This document shows, one piece after another, positions 37,501 through 49,500 of a stretch of DNA of 64,000 bases. Position 1 is the stretch's first letter. Each line of letters starts with the position of its first letter. The position numbers are program-made. The stretch comes from a candidate division FCPU426 bacterium (lineage in GTDB: Bacteria > Oederibacteriota > Muellerivitia > Muellerivitales > Muellerivitaceae), in assembly GCA_963771075.1 (NCBI GenBank), contig CAVYSE010000028.1, positions 1 through 64,000 on the forward strand, given 5' to 3'.

Positions 37501-40500
37501 CGGGGCGGGATGGCCCCCGTGAATTCCAAAAGGCGGTCGGCGAGGGTGCTTTTCCCGTGGTCGATATGGGCGATGATGCAGAAATTGCGGATATGTTCCA
37601 GCGACAAGTACGTCCTCTTTAGGGTGAGAAAGATTTTGAAAGGGGCCTAGTATAGGCCAGGGTTTTGATAAAAAGAAGAATGGATTCACGGGCGGGGGGA
37701 TGGGCATAAAACAAAAAAGGCGGCCCCAAAGGGCCGCCTTTAAACAAAAGGGCCCTTAATAAAACTGGACGTTGTCGACCCAAAAGTCGGTGTAGGTGGA
37801 TACACCGGGGGCGCCAGGGGGGGGGCTGGGGCCGCCATTGGAGAACTGCCACAAAAGAAACAAGCCCAAATTCTCAAAGCTGGCCACAGGCTGGCCGTTC
37901 ACGCTCACAGGCTGGCCGTAGAGGATCGCGGGCGCGCTGAGGGCTTGGGTCGTGAGGCCGTCCGATCCGGTGGGAGAAAAACGGATTTTCATGCTACTGA
38001 ATGGAAGGGTCATGTGTTTCCAACCCGAAGTAGAACCCGAAGGCAGGTTGAAGTTAAAGTAGTTGTAGCAGTTGGCGCTATAGGGCGGCGGGCAGATTCC
38101 AGCCGGATCCGCCCCGGCGGGGGTATTTGCGGTAATGCCGACCTGAAACCAGCGCGCAGTATTCGTATCATCCGGGAGGATGTTGATGTCAAATTGGATG
38201 CCGGTGGGAAACTGGGAAAGGTCGTAAATATAAGGATCCGTCGGGTCGTTGGGGTTGTTCCTCAGGAAGCACCACAACTCGATGGCGGGATACTCGGTGG
38301 GGTTGGTGTCCGTTTGCTCGCCGTAAATGTGGACGGCGTATTGCCCCGTATCCGGCCGGGGCACCAATATGATGGGGTTCAAGCTGCCGTTGATCATGTT
38401 GGTATGGCCCGCGACACCGCCGGTGACCTCGCCCGTGAAATAACCGCCGGTTCCGTTCGTGAGGGCCGGGTTCACGAGCAGCGAGCCCTCGTGGAAGTTG
38501 CTGATGATGTCCACCGGCAGGGCGGGCGGGACCACGGAGGACACGGTGGGCACGGAACTCGTGCAGCCTTGGAAAAAGAAAAAAGTCATAAAGGCAAGGG
38601 CCAAGGAGCCCAAACCCCAACCCAGCCATTCTTTTTTCATTCCAAGCCTCCTACCGCTGAACATCGGTTCAAAGAGAGATATTTTTTTAATTCTACCGCT
38701 ATTTAAAGAATGAGATTTGATCCACGTAAAAATCCAAATTGGAGACGCCCGGCTTGTTGTTGCGGCTTCCGCTCCATTGGAGCCACATGATTTCCTGGAG
38801 ATTCTCGCCGCTCAGGGTGGGCGGGTTGGGGATGGCCCCGGATACCAGTTGCTTCAGGTCGCTGAAATTATACCGGAAAAATTCCCATTGGCCGCCGGTG
38901 CCCCCGGAGACGTCGGCCGCGAAATGGTCGTAGCAGAGGCTGGGTCCCGCGGTGCAGTCTCCCCCGGCCACCGGGGCGAGGGTGTGTTTAACGGGAATGG
39001 CGAAATGCCGCTGTATGGTCGTGTCGTCACTGGCGATCATCAGGTAAAACTGGACACCGGTGAAATTGCTTGCGTCAAAAAACGCCCCCCCCTCCGGGTA
39101 AGCGCAGAGGTCCAGCTCCGGGAAGGCTGCGTCGCCCTGGTCGGTGACGGGGCCGGACATGCGGTAGCCGAAGGCGTCCCCGTTCGGGCCGTTCCCTCCC
39201 AAGCCGACCAGGCCCCAGTACGTAAAGCCACAATAGGCCTTGAAATTATTCAGGACCGTCACGGTAGCGGAGGATGGACTTTTCAGGGTGTAGGAGGGGG
39301 GGTTGCCCGCGTCGAAGAGGCTGGGGTTAATGGGATAGCTATAAACAGGCTTGTTCGAAGTTTTGTAAACCACAGGGGCGTTGAAACTTGGGTTTTGAAT
39401 GAGGGAAACCGAGGGCGTGATCATGGCCAGAGTGTTGAAATCGGCCACCGAATCCCGGTTGATCTGGGAAGCCGGGGCTCCATAGGTGCCGACCACAGGA
39501 ATGGAATTTTGGCACCCAATGACCGCCAGCATCCCCATAGCGGCCAGGAAAGAAACGATCAAAACGTTTCTTTTGAAGCCCCTGGGGCTATTTCCCCTAG
39601 AATTGGATTTCATAAGTCAGCTCCGCGTATTGGTTGTTGAGCGTGTTCCCGCTCGGTAAGGCCCCCACATAGGGTACCGCGTTTCCCCAGGTATAGTCAT
39701 AGTCCAAAAAAAGCCTGGAGTTGCGGTTCATGGTAAAGGTCATGGAAAGTCGCAGGCTGTCGTTGGTGCCGTTGATATTGAATATTTGGTAATTCCCCAG
39801 GTCGCTATTGTCAAAGATATAGGAATAACGGGCCATGGTGCTTCCCTGGTAGCCTGCTTCGGACCCGTTCACGCTGTCCACACTGAAGGAAAGGGCCGTA
39901 TTCCACCAGGGGAAAAGCCCCGCTTCCACGCCGCCTAAAACCCACGCGCTGGTCAAGGTGCCGATCGAGCTGTCCGTTTCCTCGTACCGGACATTGGTGC
40001 CGATCACCAGGTCTTCCGGGTCGTCGATGTAAGGCGCCAGGTTGATGGAAGGGCCCAAATTAATGTAGGTAAAGTTGCGGATGGGAACGGAAGTGACGGA
40101 AGCAGGCATATCCACCGGTACGAGCCCCGTTCCGTCCGTGGTCGCCACCAGGTTCGCCTGCATTTCCTGGACGAAATAGACCGAGCCCTTGATCTTCAGG
40201 GAGTCCTTGTCCAGCGTCTTCACGTCGATTTCCAAACCGCCGCCCTGTCGGTTGGGGGTGCCCAGGCCATAGGGGAAGGTATTGTCTTCCGTGCGGTCGT
40301 AGAATGAAAAGATGCCGCTCGCGCGGGGAACCCCCGATAGGAAGAACTGGCTCCGGAGCGGGTCGGTGTTGAATTCCGGCGTTGGCGCCGAACTGTTAAA
40401 GTTCGAGGTGGCGGTGACCAGGTCCTGGCGGGTCTGGGCGAGGGGCGAGAAGAAGTTGGGACCCACGTTCAGGAAATTGAACGAGATTTGGGAATGCTGG

Positions 40501-46500: not shown

Positions 46501-49500
46501 AGGCGGGTCTTGAGGATCTGGGTGGAGTCGCCGAGTTGTTTCAGGAGTCTCTCGATTTCCGTTTTGGCGGACGGCGGATAATTGGGTGCCAGGGTCGGAA
46601 CCGGGACGGGTGTGTTCTCCGGGGGGGCGAGGGGAGCCATGGTCGGGACGGGAACCGCCTCCGGCACCAAGGGTTCCGGAATGGCGGGAGGGGCGACTTC
46701 CGGGACGGATGGGATGCTCACGGGTGCCGTGGGCAGGGTCACCGGGACAGGGGTGGGTACGGGCGTGGGTGCGATTCCCAGGGTGGGTGCCTCAATACGG
46801 GCTTTGGCCTTCTCGGTATAAAAAGCCAATTCCATTCGGGTCACGACCTTGCCCTGGTCCAAAACCTGCTGGTCGTCCGGGTCCAATAGTCCGTAGGTTT
46901 CCAGGTGCTTCACCTGCTGGTAAAGGGGCGCGTCGGAAGTGACTTCCTCGTAGGGGTTGGCCTGTAAGGGGCTCGCGGTAAAGATACCCAGCAAACCCGC
47001 CAGCGCCATCAAAAGGATTAAAAATTTAAGTTTCAAAACAAGTCCCTTGAATTCATAGGTATTGAAAAATCCGTCTCCCAGGCTTTAAAAAAACTCGATG
47101 TCATCCACCCAATAATCGATGTTATAAGTCCCGGCGTTGTTGTCTCCGCCGTGATCCCACTTGACATAAACGAATTCATTGAGATGGTCCACCAAATCCG
47201 GAGGAACCACGGGGGAACCCCACCCAGGCTCCCGAGGCAGTTCGGTGAATTTATAGGAACAAAACTTCCAGTCGGTCGTAGGGGCCATATAGGCGCCGAA
47301 ATGGTTGTAACAATCGGTCGCGCAGGTCCCTCCGTCCTGCGGGGGCAGGGTGGGCGAGGTTCCGATGGCAAAACGCCGCTTGATGGCCTGGTCGTCCTCG
47401 GGGCACTTGTAATAAAACTGGATTCCGGAAAAGGCGCTGGCGTCATAAAAACCGCCCGACTTGAACTGTCCCTGCAGGGTGAAGGAGGGATAGGACCGGT
47501 CTCCCTTGTCCGTCAGGCTTCCGGTCACGTGGGCGCAAAAGGGCAATCCGTTGGGCCCGCCCTTGTCGATAAAAACAGGGTTCGGAGTGTTCCCCGCGAA
47601 TGAAAAAACCATAAAAGAACCAGTGGCGCCGCCGTAAAGTTTGGAGTTGATCGCCTTGTTGCCGCCCTCGAAATTGCAGATGATTTTTTGTTCGGCGGGA
47701 ACGATGACTTTCGGCTTACTTAAATCGGGATTGACCAATCCGTCCCGCAGGGAGGACATCTTGGAACCAGGATTGATGAAGACTGCGCCACAGCCGGCGA
47801 GGACGAACAGGAGGAAAAGCCCCAGGCACCAAGCGTAAAATTTCGGGGAAAACATAGCGACCTCATCCGGGGGATAACAGAGCCAAAGCCCGTGTATTTT
47901 ACTAAAAGGTGGGAAGGGACGTTAGTTTTTTTTCAAGGAACCATCATGTAAATTTTTTAACCCTATGGATAGCCGCCGGTAGAGGGGGAGATCAATCCCT
48001 AGCACTGGGGAGTTGAACCGTTAAACGGTCACGCTTCAAAGCTTTTGGGTTGTTGAATGAATTATTTCGCGACATAAAAAAGGGCTTTCAAAGTACCCCT
48101 GGACGGAAATCAGGATTTTTTACCACTTCGTTTCGGGAGAATCTCCAGATTCCTTACCCCGGTTCGTGGCTAACACCATCACCCCGCCGAATGAATCAGG
48201 GCTTCGGTTTCCGAGCCGGGGAGGTTCCCGTGACTCCCTTCACATAGGCGAAGTCAAAGGCGTGCACCGAGTCATCCGGGGTCTCCACCAGGATAGCCGC
48301 CATGGTCTGGCTGTCCCGCTCGGGCTGCGCCTCCTTGGGCAGGTTCACGAACATGCTCTTCACCCGAACCACCATGCCGGGGGAAACATCCAGGGGACCC
48401 ACCGTCGAAAGCACGTTGTAATAGTCCTTCGTGGTGTCCAATTGCCTCAAGATCAAACCCTTGATGGTATTGGCGGTCGGGTTATGGATATCCACCGTCA
48501 AGGGTACTTCTGCGCCCAAAGACGCTTCCTTGGGCGCGGTCAGGCTCACCTCCACCGGCAGCAGTCCCTCCTCCTGGCGCAGGGTCGTGAAGGCCTTCCC
48601 GCCCGAGATCGCCCATTCCATCCGGGAATAGGGGCCCCGGACGCCCCAGATCAGGCGGTAAAGGTCATGCCAGAACATGCCCAGGTTGGCGTTCAAGCCG
48701 TACCAAAGGTTGAATGTTTCTACTTCCCGGTTATAGAGTTCCTCCGGCGCGGGAGGATCCAGGCTTTTCTGCACCATGTTAAAATCAACTTCCTCGCCCG
48801 GAACGTACATGCCCCCTTCCCGGGAAAGGTACCCCGGCCAATGCCGTTTCATGTCCTCGATGGTGCTGCGATCCCCCTCATAAAGCATGATGTGGTTGAA
48901 GTTGATCCCGGCGTCCACCAGCATGGCCGGGTCTTGCCCGTGTTGGTGCCCCATTTCCCAACCCAGGGTGAAGGTAAAAACGGGCTTCGTCATTTTTGCC
49001 TGGTCCAGGACATTTTTCAGCACCATCGCCACCTTGTGCGCCCGCCACCACTCGAAAAGGGCTACCACCTGCGGATCCGTATTTCGTTCCACGGTATGGG
49101 CCAACCAATGGATGCGGTCGGGCTCGGCCATCGTGTCGAAACCCTCGGGCAGGTTCATGTTCAGGTCCTTCACGAACTCATCCACCAGCTCATAACCCGC
49201 AAAACCGGTACGGACGTAATCCAGCCCCACGAAATCCACGTTGGAGTCTTTGTTCATGGTCTGGAGGAAATCCAGGATGTCCTGCTGGCGTTTCGGGTCG
49301 TCGAGGGAAATGAACCGGGTCTGGATTACCTGATCCGTGCTCAAGTCATAGCCGAGGGAGAATTGATAAGGGGCCTGGTGCCATCCGTCCCCCTCGACCT
49401 TGAAGGTGGTCATGTAGGCTGCGTACTTTATCCCCGCCGCGTGGGCGGCCTGGGCGTACTTGCGCCCGTTCTCCATTTCCTCCCGGTTGAAGGGAAAATC

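What a model noticed while it worked through the whole genome (the two positions that open the first line are those of the whole stretch)
37756..47855. Three paralogous cassettes of giant SLH-stalk-beta-barrel (OmpM-like) outer-membrane proteins, beside a Pal/Lol envelope [...]
Three paralogous cassettes (C28:37756-47855 g03628-g03633; C24:57124-66222 g03168-g03173; C26:25657-34363 g03443-g03449, the last broken by frame breaks) encode, in the same order, a ~255-aa lipoprotein, three consecutive secreted proteins of 740-910 aa and a second 250-300-aa lipoprotein. Each large protein has an N-terminal SLH-like domain, a Pro-rich linker, a ~50-residue coiled-coil stalk and a very large (about 22-stranded) beta-barrel: the OmpM/SlpA plan of Terrabacteria, here in triplicate and with bigger barrels. 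Two cassettes lie in polysaccharide-degradation loci (GH44; GH30/GH67/acetylesterase with LacI/AraC regulators and sugar-binding proteins), suggesting wall-anchored glycan-u [...]
Evidence so far: blastp groups the proteins into families with one member of each per cassette. No Pfam/NCBIfam/Swiss-Prot hit (tables; call 53). Only 63 and 70 relatives among 5.8 billion proteins, all unnamed. AlphaFold2 with 29- and 31-sequence alignments: g03631 pLDDT 75.5 (helical N-domain, disordered 84-129, helix 129-173, 22 long strands 177-763); g03632 pLDDT 68.7, same plan. Profile vs PDB sequences: best hits are OmpM entries 8bys/8bym/8bz2, E 4.9e-6 and 4.8e-4, over SLH + stalk; residue alignment shows the SLH motif (W..AV..L..aG.v...iTR.E.AqmvA vs RDaWin..v.dLv.aGlv...ltNLEvAqltA) and the stalk motif LADEFSNELNNLGVRVSRLEDRV vs LveEFr.ELsalGvdvdkLEDRl. 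Foldseek: only generic barrels, TM<=0.35, inc [...]
(Added by a program. Inside this text positions count along the whole contig: contig position 1 is position 1 of the stretch shown here. "Call 12" and the like, gene names such as g00115 and contig names such as C1 are that model's own, and its searches are not shown. The text may have been shortened before it was handed on; [...] marks where a part breaks off. The agent that wrote the report below was given it as the finding of a first reader that could run no searches.)

Follow-up and report, generated by a model that had tools for sequence, protein, structure and literature searches.

The report
Wall-anchored Cytophaga-type sugar-uptake barrels
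This gene block encodes three large outer-membrane channels related to those that a well-studied soil bacterium needs to eat cellulose, each here joined to a cell-wall anchor and flanked by sugar-binding lipoproteins, so it probably imports plant-sugar fragments while also fastening the outer membrane to the wall.

Summary
The cassette is real. It has six genes: lipoprotein A, barrels B, C, D, lipoproteins E, F. The SLH-stalk-barrel plan holds, but only the N-terminus is OmpM-like. The barrels are homologues of Cytophaga hutchinsonii CHU_1276 (B) and CHU_1277 (C, and D by duplication), in the same gene order. Lipoprotein A folds like CBM11, as reported for CHU_1279. So this is a chu_1276-1280-type, SusC/SusD-free glycan-uptake locus with an added wall tether. 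The C model has 22 strands and no plug. C relatives occur in 68 of 99 genomes of the phylum: triplets in this order, mostly pairs elsewhere. This copy is the conserved core locus. The nine cassette barrels are the genome's only SLH-like proteins. The 'Pal/Lol envelope' is only partly borne out, CsaB was not found, and contigs from other runs carry the two C26 genes in frame. Transport, wall binding and a B:C:D heterotrimer are inferred, not shown. The scan had already noted the two-barrel and untethered forms on other DNA.

The parts
47085..47855 (-). A: lipoprotein (Cys22) with one CBM11-fold beta-sandwich; putative surface glycan-binding protein
   Evidence: Invariant lipobox Cys in 54 aligned rows; model pLDDT 90.2; best match CBM11 1v0a, Z 16.5, rmsd 2.9, 161 aligned; Foldseek top hits 6r31, 6r3m, 1v0a
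44316..47036 (-). B: signal peptide, SLH-like domain, Pro-rich linker, coiled coil, large barrel of the CHU_1276 family; ends in Phe
   Evidence: hhalign against CHU_1276-position proteins prob 98.7, E 2.7e-16, 452 columns; B profile hits 100 of 103 CHU_1276-family and 1 of 118 CHU_1277-family proteins
46791..46958 (-). SLH-like domain of B (motif TRME; Arg kept)
   Evidence: Profile hit to OmpM 8bys E 1.4e-7; motif census
42016..44310 (-). C: signal peptide, SLH-like domain, linker, coiled coil, 22-stranded plug-less barrel of the CHU_1277 family
   Evidence: Model; hhalign against CHU_1277 prob 99.9, E 4e-31, 475 columns; 118 of 118 CHU_1277-family proteins hit
44053..44205 (-). SLH-like domain of C (Trp43 kept; motif SNLE, Arg replaced by Asn)
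   Evidence: Profile hit to 8bys E 1.4e-10 over SLH and stalk; motif census
42022..43782 (-). Barrel of C (residues 177-763); family-wide conserved residues cluster in the loops after strands 5 (41 aa) and 13 (71 aa)
39597..42074 (-). D: second CHU_1277-family SLH-stalk-barrel protein, a duplicate of C; likely start 42032, overlapping the end of C by 17 nt
   Evidence: D profile hits 118 of 118 CHU_1277-family and 0 of 103 CHU_1276-family proteins; C and D form one clade, support 0.975, quick tree; GGAG before 42032
41790..41945 (-). SLH-like domain of D (motif TRFE; Arg in 33 of 33)
38699..39613 (-). E: lipoprotein paralogous to A; start overlaps the end of D by 17 nt
   Evidence: blastp to A 37%, E 5e-30
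37756..38664 (-). F: third lipoprotein of the same family
   Evidence: A/E profile E 8e-36
37716..37741 (-). Terminator-like hairpin (11 pairs, T tail) between the cassette and lepA
   Evidence: Strongest of 13 sites; consensus match only, and the region holds no more such sites than shuffles do (mean 16.2)

Best explanation
The cassette is a chu_1276-1280-type glycan-uptake locus that works without SusC/SusD, and its barrels carry an OmpM-type wall tether. Secreted or surface glycoside hydrolases release oligosaccharides. The CBM11-fold lipoproteins A, E and F bind and concentrate them at the surface. They cross the outer membrane through large plug-less barrels (one CHU_1276-type, two CHU_1277-type), probably by facilitated diffusion gated by two conserved long loops rather than by TonB. 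ABC solute-binding proteins then take them on. The SLH-like domains and coiled-coil stalks bundle the barrels, most simply as a B:C:D trimer, and hold them on the cell wall. The C28 copy is the vertically inherited core copy; the C24 and C26 copies are duplicates placed in substrate-specific loci. Shown here: architecture, homology, gene order, lipoprotein fold, distribution, neighbourhoods. Inferred: transport, substrate, energy independence, wall binding, trimer make-up, surface exposure of the lipoproteins.
For: C profile vs CHU_1277: prob 99.9, E 4e-31; identity of P0169/P0354 and P0346 from accession records ABG58549, ABG58548. Specificity: B hits 100/103 CHU_1276-family and 1/118 CHU_1277-family proteins; C and D hit 118/118 CHU_1277-family and 0/103 CHU_1276-family; reversed decoys 0. 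The reverse CHU_1277 profile ranks the eight own C/D ORFs first among 1998 ORFs plus their reversals. The CHU_1276 profile hits B-type proteins of distant families at up to 77 bits. Order B then C then lipoproteins matches the Cytophagales loci. A folds like CBM11; CHU_1279's binding domain is said to resemble CBM11 6R3M (PMC12016534). chu_1276 and chu_1277 are needed for cellulose and cello-oligosaccharide use (PMC12016534, PMC5553014). Neighbours: GH44 at C24; GH30, GH67, acetylesterase at C26; GH, CBM or sugar-binding genes at 9 of 12 accessory loci of relatives; GH9 within 8 kb at 9 of 26 distant loci. G000 has no SusD match. B-C-D order in 33 of 34 loci; trees largely congruent, patristic r 0.91-0.94. 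SLH-like hits come in multiples of three in 24 of 32 genomes of this order.
Against: No experiment. The role of CHU_1276/1277 as channels is itself unproven; their mutants also lose cell-associated beta-glucosidase activity. The B link is the weaker one: against CHU_1276 alone hhalign gives prob 76, E 2e-5, and the reverse CHU_1276 profile scores the window's B only E 3.3. The lipoproteins show no sequence link to CHU_1278/1279-position proteins; only the fold is shared. No annotated hydrolase flanks the core copy. Family f3 has GH9 (5 of 5) but no cassette match (0 of 5), and 9 genomes with a clear cassette match lack GH9. CsaB was not found in G000 (best E 9e-4) and Pfam SLH is not met, so the wall ligand is unknown. 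The genome has 10 TonB-dependent barrel matches and four TonB domains, so other uptake routes exist.
Confidence: 0.68

Rival explanations
1. The proteins are mainly structural OmpM-type tethers with general-porin activity. Their sitting among glycan genes reflects a glycan-rich genome and later recruitment of duplicates.
For: The core copy is present beside rlmD/lepA in 20 of 32 loci of relatives, also in genomes without GH9. The nine barrels are the only SLH-like proteins of G000. No canonical Pal. OmpM has both tether and channel roles (PMC10628300 abstract).
Against: The barrels are CHU_1276/1277 family, not OmpM. Untethered forms exist with the same lipoprotein partners (L111; Cytophagales). 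Accessory and distant copies are often beside hydrolases. This reading is compatible with the best explanation as a second role.
Confidence: 0.15
2. The barrels are scaffolds or export platforms that display or anchor hydrolases and glycan-binding lipoproteins at the surface; they do not import sugar.
For: [quoted passage not shown] The lipoprotein genes directly follow the barrel genes, and no LolA was found in G000.
Against: CHU_1277 was tied to cello-oligosaccharide assimilation, and chu_1276 and chu_1279 mutants grow poorly on low glucose. Sugar ABC binding proteins often adjoin the cassettes.
Confidence: 0.12
3. The barrels are energised (TonB-type) transporters whose plug is supplied in trans, for example by a lipoprotein or another chain.
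For: 22 strands is the TonB-dependent transporter number, and the top structural match is the SusC BT1763 (Z 13.7, rmsd 4.5, 398 aligned). TonB genes exist in the genome.
Against: Z values are tied with porins (OmpM 13.3, OpdQ 12.9) and identities are 7-13%. There is no plug in the model, and CHU_1277's barrel starts 11 residues into the 584-aa record. No PF00593 match for B, C or D. I saw no tonB/exbBD beside the three own cassettes.
Confidence: 0.05

Closest known systems
Cytophaga hutchinsonii chu_1276-chu_1280 atypical PUL (PMC12016534; first part, discussion and passages read)
   Same: Homologous barrels in the same order (CHU_1276-type, then CHU_1277-type), followed by lipoproteins with CBM11-like folds; no SusD; hydrolases nearby in accessory and distant copies (GH9 in many).
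   Different: Each barrel here has an added SLH-like domain, Pro-rich linker and coiled coil. The CHU_1277-type gene is duplicated (C, D). There is an extra upstream lipoprotein. The lipoproteins are single-domain and not detectably homologous in sequence to CHU_1278/1279. Up to four cassettes per genome; different phylum; the core copy has no annotated hydrolase.
OmpM (Veillonella parvula OmpM1, PDB 8BYS/8BYM/8BZ2) and SlpA (Deinococcus radiodurans)
   Same: Tripartite SLH, coiled coil, outer-membrane barrel plan; sequence similarity over SLH and stalk.
   Different: The barrel shows no sequence similarity to OmpM's. A Pro-rich linker of very variable length (5-213 aa) lies between SLH and stalk. 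Pfam SLH is not met; CsaB not found. Three divergent, coupled paralogues point to a heterotrimer, whereas SlpA is a homotrimer and OmpM1 a trimeric porin.
SusC/SusD utilisome of Bacteroidota
   Same: 22-stranded barrel plus surface glycan-binding lipoproteins plus hydrolases and regulators in one locus.
   Different: No plug domain, no PF00593 match, no SusD; two or three different barrels; wall tether; ABC solute-binding proteins in the loci.

Membership tests
chu_1276-1280-type atypical PUL | CHU_1277-family barrel | tested here: met
   prob 99.9; C 191 bits and D 42 bits against ABG58549; reciprocal profile finds C and D first
chu_1276-1280-type atypical PUL | CHU_1276-family barrel directly upstream | tested here: met
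   the reverse profile is weak for the window's B itself (E 3.3) but clear for B of distant families
chu_1276-1280-type atypical PUL | Downstream SGBP-B-like lipoproteins with CBM-like domains | tested here: met
   Lipobox and CBM11 fold for A; E and F are its paralogues
chu_1276-1280-type atypical PUL | Sequence homology of the lipoproteins to CHU_1278/CHU_1279 | tested here: not met
   hhalign prob 0.9 and 3.6 against positional orthologues; the named proteins themselves were not in hand
chu_1276-1280-type atypical PUL | Endoglucanase (chu_1280) in the cluster | tested here: inconclusive
   None annotated at C28; GH44 at C24, GH30/GH67 at C26; GH9 at 9 of 26 distant loci
chu_1276-1280-type atypical PUL | Needed for, and induced by, growth on the glycan | not testable with these tools
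   Uncultured organism
OmpM (definition of 10.1101/2021.05.31.446380) | PF00395 SLH at gathering cut-off | tested here: not met
   no hit in G000; 2 of 99 genomes have a hit, in unrelated TPR lipoproteins
OmpM | SLH-like domain plus coiled coil homologous to OmpM | tested here: met
   Profile hits E 1.4e-10 (C), 1.4e-7 (B), 1.5e-3 (D); model helices
OmpM | C-terminal outer-membrane beta-barrel | tested here: met
   Model of C; it is a different barrel family from V. parvula OmpM (0.4 bits)
OmpM | CsaB-pyruvylated wall polymer (or polyaminated peptidoglycan) as ligand | tested here: inconclusive
   CsaB not found in G000 or over the cut-off in any f1 genome; polyamination not tested
OmpM | Trimer that binds the cell wall | not testable with these tools
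   Needs sacculus binding and a structure
SusC/SusD (TonB-dependent) system | N-terminal plug and PF00593 barrel | tested here: not met
SusC/SusD (TonB-dependent) system | SusD partner | tested here: not met
   PF07980: no match in G000 (96.7% complete); control Bacteroides rings
Pal/Lol envelope (Gracilicutes type) | Pal next to tolB; LolA; LolC/E | tested here: inconclusive
   Pal-like lipoprotein C6:135147-135653 below cut-off, no TolB_N; LolA not found with PF03548 or PF17131; LolC/E 362.1 bits against cut-off 362.45
Gracilicutes placement of the phylum | Position in a marker-gene tree | not tested

The most novel reading that the evidence does not exclude
B, C and D form an obligate 1:1:1 heterotrimer of plug-less giant barrels, capped by CBM11-fold lipoproteins. 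It is at once the TonB-free oligosaccharide importer and the main outer-membrane-to-wall tether of this bacterial family. It arose by fusing an OmpM-type SLH-stalk to the CHU_1276/CHU_1277 pair, binds a wall ligand that needs no CsaB, and evolved from a B:C2 trimer by duplication of C, perhaps twice. It would follow that C. hutchinsonii CHU_1276 and CHU_1277 also work as one hetero-oligomeric channel.
Probability: 0.35. Interest if true: 0.85.

Novelty: new variant of a known kind. Interest (0 to 1): 0.7.

Why it matters
How Cytophaga-type bacteria take up cellulose products without SusC/SusD is an open question, and the chu_1276-1280 cluster was reported only in three close Bacteroidetes (PMC12016534). 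Finding its barrel pair in about two thirds of the genomes of another, largely uncultured phylum, in core and substrate-specific copies, makes it a general uptake system. The fused SLH-stalk suggests the assembly (a trimer of unlike barrels), which can be tested in culturable C. hutchinsonii. It also shows that the OmpM survey rule (Pfam SLH at cut-off) misses SLH-type tethers, which bears on the claimed Terrabacteria/Gracilicutes split if the phylum is placed in Gracilicutes.

Tried and rejected
Pfam and NCBIfam scans of the six proteins: no meaningful family. Fold searches of the C model give only generic barrels, with tied Z 11-14 and TM at most 0.37 by query; no family is excluded by that. 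Complex prediction of the three SLH-stalk fragments of B, C, D: no answer, score 0.00 against a mark of 0.32; no evidence either way. RNA: no RNA holder listed. ESM Atlas for the B barrel: only unnamed or DUF6029 clusters at 0.94, one mostly from Fibrobacterota; a lead, not followed. Idea that an ordinary OmpM in sister families was the SLH donor: neither Pfam SLH nor my SLH profile finds anything in f3-f9, although most of these have CsaB; donor unknown. Idea that the upstream RlmD-fusion tail is a hydrolase tying the core copy to glycans: no PDB or Pfam support. Stalk charge complementarity: all three stalks are on average mildly acidic, uninformative. The careful IQ-TREE run did not finish; the trees used are FastTree. 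Promoter scan: 2 sites against 4.3 in shuffles, nothing claimed. Literature: searches listed no paper linking CHU_1276/1277 to SLH or to this phylum; the library lacks most subscription papers.

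
Full report
Observation. The window holds six co-directional minus-strand genes between 37756 and 47855: lipoprotein A (256 aa), B (906), C (764), D (825), lipoproteins E (304) and F (302). 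A terminator-like hairpin follows at 37741-37716 (consensus match only). C and D, and D and E, overlap by the same 17 bases, each with a GGAG upstream of the ATG, which suggests translational coupling. Two paralogous cassettes lie on C24 and C26, at 39-52% identity, one member of each barrel family per cassette. B on C24 and C and D on C26 are frame-broken. Pfam and NCBIfam name none of the six proteins.

Anatomy. An AlphaFold2 model of C from 65 sequences (pLDDT 83.7) has SLH-like helices at 41-84, a low-confidence linker, a long helix at 120-173 and 22 long strands from 177 to 763, with no plug domain. Profiles of C, B and D match Veillonella OmpM only over the N-terminus (E 1.4e-10, 1.4e-7, 1.5e-3); the C barrel scores 0.4 bits against OmpM's. 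Structure searches give generic barrels with tied scores: SusC BT1763 Z 13.7, OmpM 13.3, OpdQ 12.9. Lipoprotein A folds with pLDDT 90.2, and its best match among 48,161 chains is CBM11 (1v0a, Z 16.5, rmsd 2.9, 161 aligned; Foldseek agrees). E and F are paralogues of A. B and D were not modelled.

The key link. The exhaustive search with C returned 109 proteins, among them weak hits of about 570 aa with a signal peptide and barrel only. A search with one of these found C. hutchinsonii CHU_1277 (accessions). The C profile aligns with CHU_1277 at probability 99.9, E 4e-31, over 475 columns. In 23 metagenome loci around CHU_1277 relatives, the B profile picks out the gene directly upstream; that family holds CHU_1276, and profile against profile gives probability 98.7, E 2.7e-16. 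A cross test (every member of both sets scored, cut-off E 1e-3): B hits 100 of 103 CHU_1276-family and 1 of 118 CHU_1277-family proteins; C and D hit 118 of 118 CHU_1277-family and 0 of 103 CHU_1276-family; no reversed decoy passes. The reverse CHU_1277 profile ranks the eight own C/D reading frames first. The reverse CHU_1276 profile misses the window's B (E 3.3) but finds B-type proteins of distant families at up to 77 bits; against CHU_1276 alone, B gives probability 76. So the B link is weaker but, with gene order, convincing. CHU_1277's barrel also begins right after its signal peptide. The lipoproteins show no sequence link to the proteins at the chu_1278 and chu_1279 positions; they share a fold only.

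What is known of that locus. PMC12016534 (first part, discussion and passages read) describes chu_1276-1280 as an atypical PUL without a SusD homologue, needed for cellulose use, with a cellulose-binding lipoprotein whose active domain resembles CBM11, and reports it in two further close relatives only. PMC5553014 (passages) cites CHU_1277 as critical through cello-oligosaccharide assimilation and calls it a porin; it also notes loss of cell-associated beta-glucosidase activity in the mutants. I did not see the primary papers (Ji 2014, Zhou 2016). One review passage (PMC11611037) seems to call CHU_1276 a histone-like protein; this conflicts with the other sources and with the sequence.

Distribution. 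Among 99 genomes of the phylum, 68 match the C profile (two weakly) and 65 the B profile; all 30 other genomes of the family do. Of 34 loci of this order fetched around C hits, 33 have B-C-D in order and one ends at a contig end after C. In 20 of the 32 loci from other genomes the cassette sits beside the rlmD fusion and/or lepA: the C28 copy is the core locus. Trees of B, C and D for 31 cassettes share 15 of about 20 well-supported splits, with 2-3 in conflict, so the triplet is mostly copied whole. A profile of the SLH-like domain finds exactly nine proteins in G000, the nine barrels. Its hits come in multiples of three in 24 of 32 genomes of this order, and in even numbers in 19 of 25 genomes with hits in families f11, f12 and f15-f23 (my count; fragmented genomes included). 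Those families mostly carry a B+C pair followed by strings of lipoproteins; f13 has a triplet; f8 and f14 have pairs without SLH. A quick tree groups C with D (0.975) and the two C-type genes of f13 with each other (0.72), which hints at two separate duplications (long branches, midpoint root).

Link to glycans. C24 adjoins a GH44 and a sugar-binding protein; C26 adjoins GH30, GH67, an acetylesterase, LacI and AraC regulators. Nine of 12 accessory loci of relatives have a GH, CBM or sugar-binding neighbour, five of them a named GH domain (50 of 56 neighbours scanned). Nine of 26 distant loci that I picked have a GH9 within 8 kb (a lower bound, as the lists were cut); others adjoin GH44, GH8, GH116, fucosidases or BNR-repeat proteins. 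Families f4, f6, f7 and f9 lack both cassette and GH9 (f5 has one weak C match and no GH9), but f3 has GH9 without the cassette and nine cassette-bearing genomes lack GH9; kin are not independent. The core copy has no annotated hydrolase. G000 has no SusD match but 10 TonB-dependent barrel matches.

Envelope. No genome passes the Pal cut-off (0 of 99). G000 has a 168-aa Pal-like lipoprotein, no TolB_N match, no LolA match with two models, and a LolC/E at the cut-off. CsaB passes the cut-off in 24 of 99 genomes, all in f4-f9 and f13, and was not found in G000; so, except in f13, SLH-like barrels and CsaB exclude each other. The SLH motif arginine, which binds the pyruvate in studied SLH domains (PMC10628300 section 7), is present in D (33 of 33) and most B (at least 29 of 38) but replaced by Asn in most C (at least 53 of 65). 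In 17 two-gene loci of f15-f23 it is the reverse: C has it in 17, B in 1 (my reading). A B:C:D and a B:C2 trimer would each have two arginine-bearing chains; this is suggestive only. The OmpM survey (10.1101/2021.05.31.446380; sections 5, 10 and part of 8 read) required Pfam SLH at cut-off and so would miss these proteins. PMC9388160 (passages and section 9) already reports SLH-coil-barrel proteins with 8 to 30 strands, also in Chlorobi and Bacteroidetes. I saw no supplements; the taxon tables of these two papers may bear on whether this phylum was examined. PMC7031533 (passages) describes cellulolytic Goldbacteria rich in CBM11, GH9 and GH44, which resembles the distant families here; that match is my inference.

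Mechanism and verdict. Most likely (0.68) this is a SusC/SusD-free oligosaccharide uptake device of the chu_1276-1280 kind, with barrels bundled and held on the wall by OmpM-type tethers, and perhaps doubling as the outer-membrane anchor. Homology, order, folds and context are shown; transport, wall binding and heterotrimer are inferred. It works like OmpM at one end and like the Cytophaga locus at the other; it fails the Pfam definition of OmpM and is not SusC/SusD. I recorded this reading before seeing two earlier scan notes that reach it for a two-barrel tethered locus and an untethered one in other genomes; these are AI notes, not support. New here are the three-barrel form, its core status in a whole family, the B/C/D assignment with controls, and the CsaB pattern. 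Novelty: new variant of a known kind. Interest 0.7.

Noticed in passing
window 48196-52497 (-): A 1433-aa protein: an RlmD-like RNA methyltransferase (TRAM plus methyltransferase, residues 12-477) fused through a low-complexity region and a hydrophobic stretch to a conserved 630-aa part with no Pfam or PDB match. The fusion is intact in 17 loci of relatives, always just upstream of the core cassette.
   Followed up: partly
window 52500-54146 (+) and 54224-55012 (-): A 548-aa probable outer-membrane barrel and a 262-aa membrane-anchored protein, both without Pfam hits, conserved beside the core cassette in relatives.
   Followed up: no
G000 C6:127660-135653 (-): Pal-like 168-aa lipoprotein, a 1005-aa protein, a 650-aa probable barrel, an ExbB-like gene (by inspection) and a TonB domain in one run, with no tolB found.
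   Followed up: partly
families f4-f9 of the phylum (e.g. L107, L109): Strong CsaB homologues in genomes where neither Pfam SLH nor my SLH profile finds any SLH domain; the partner of the pyruvylated polymer is unexplained.
   Followed up: no
L111:6742-10494 (G021) and L122:6047-10264 (G075): B+C barrel pairs without SLH inside the same phylum, i.e. Cytophaga-like untethered forms; G075's keep a short coiled coil.
   Followed up: partly
L110:7610-15026 (G074): A second kind of triplet, all three with SLH-like domains, in the only genome that also has CsaB; it lies beside mreB and recG rather than hydrolases.
   Followed up: partly
P0105, P0106, P0107; Atlas cluster of 729 aa: More distant CHU_1277-type barrels without SLH, and a B-like Atlas cluster mostly from Fibrobacterota: the system may extend to Fibrobacter, whose cellodextrin channel is unknown (PMC6851124 passages).
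   Followed up: no
window 29652-31582 (-): dnaK is split into 119- and 524-aa frames, probably an assembly indel like those on C26.
   Followed up: no
G000 C24:53087-53803 and C26:21936-22763, 34418-35674: Further lipoproteins with the same kind of C-terminal ending near the accessory cassettes; 10 of the 11 genome-wide hits of my pattern lie at the three cassettes.
   Followed up: partly
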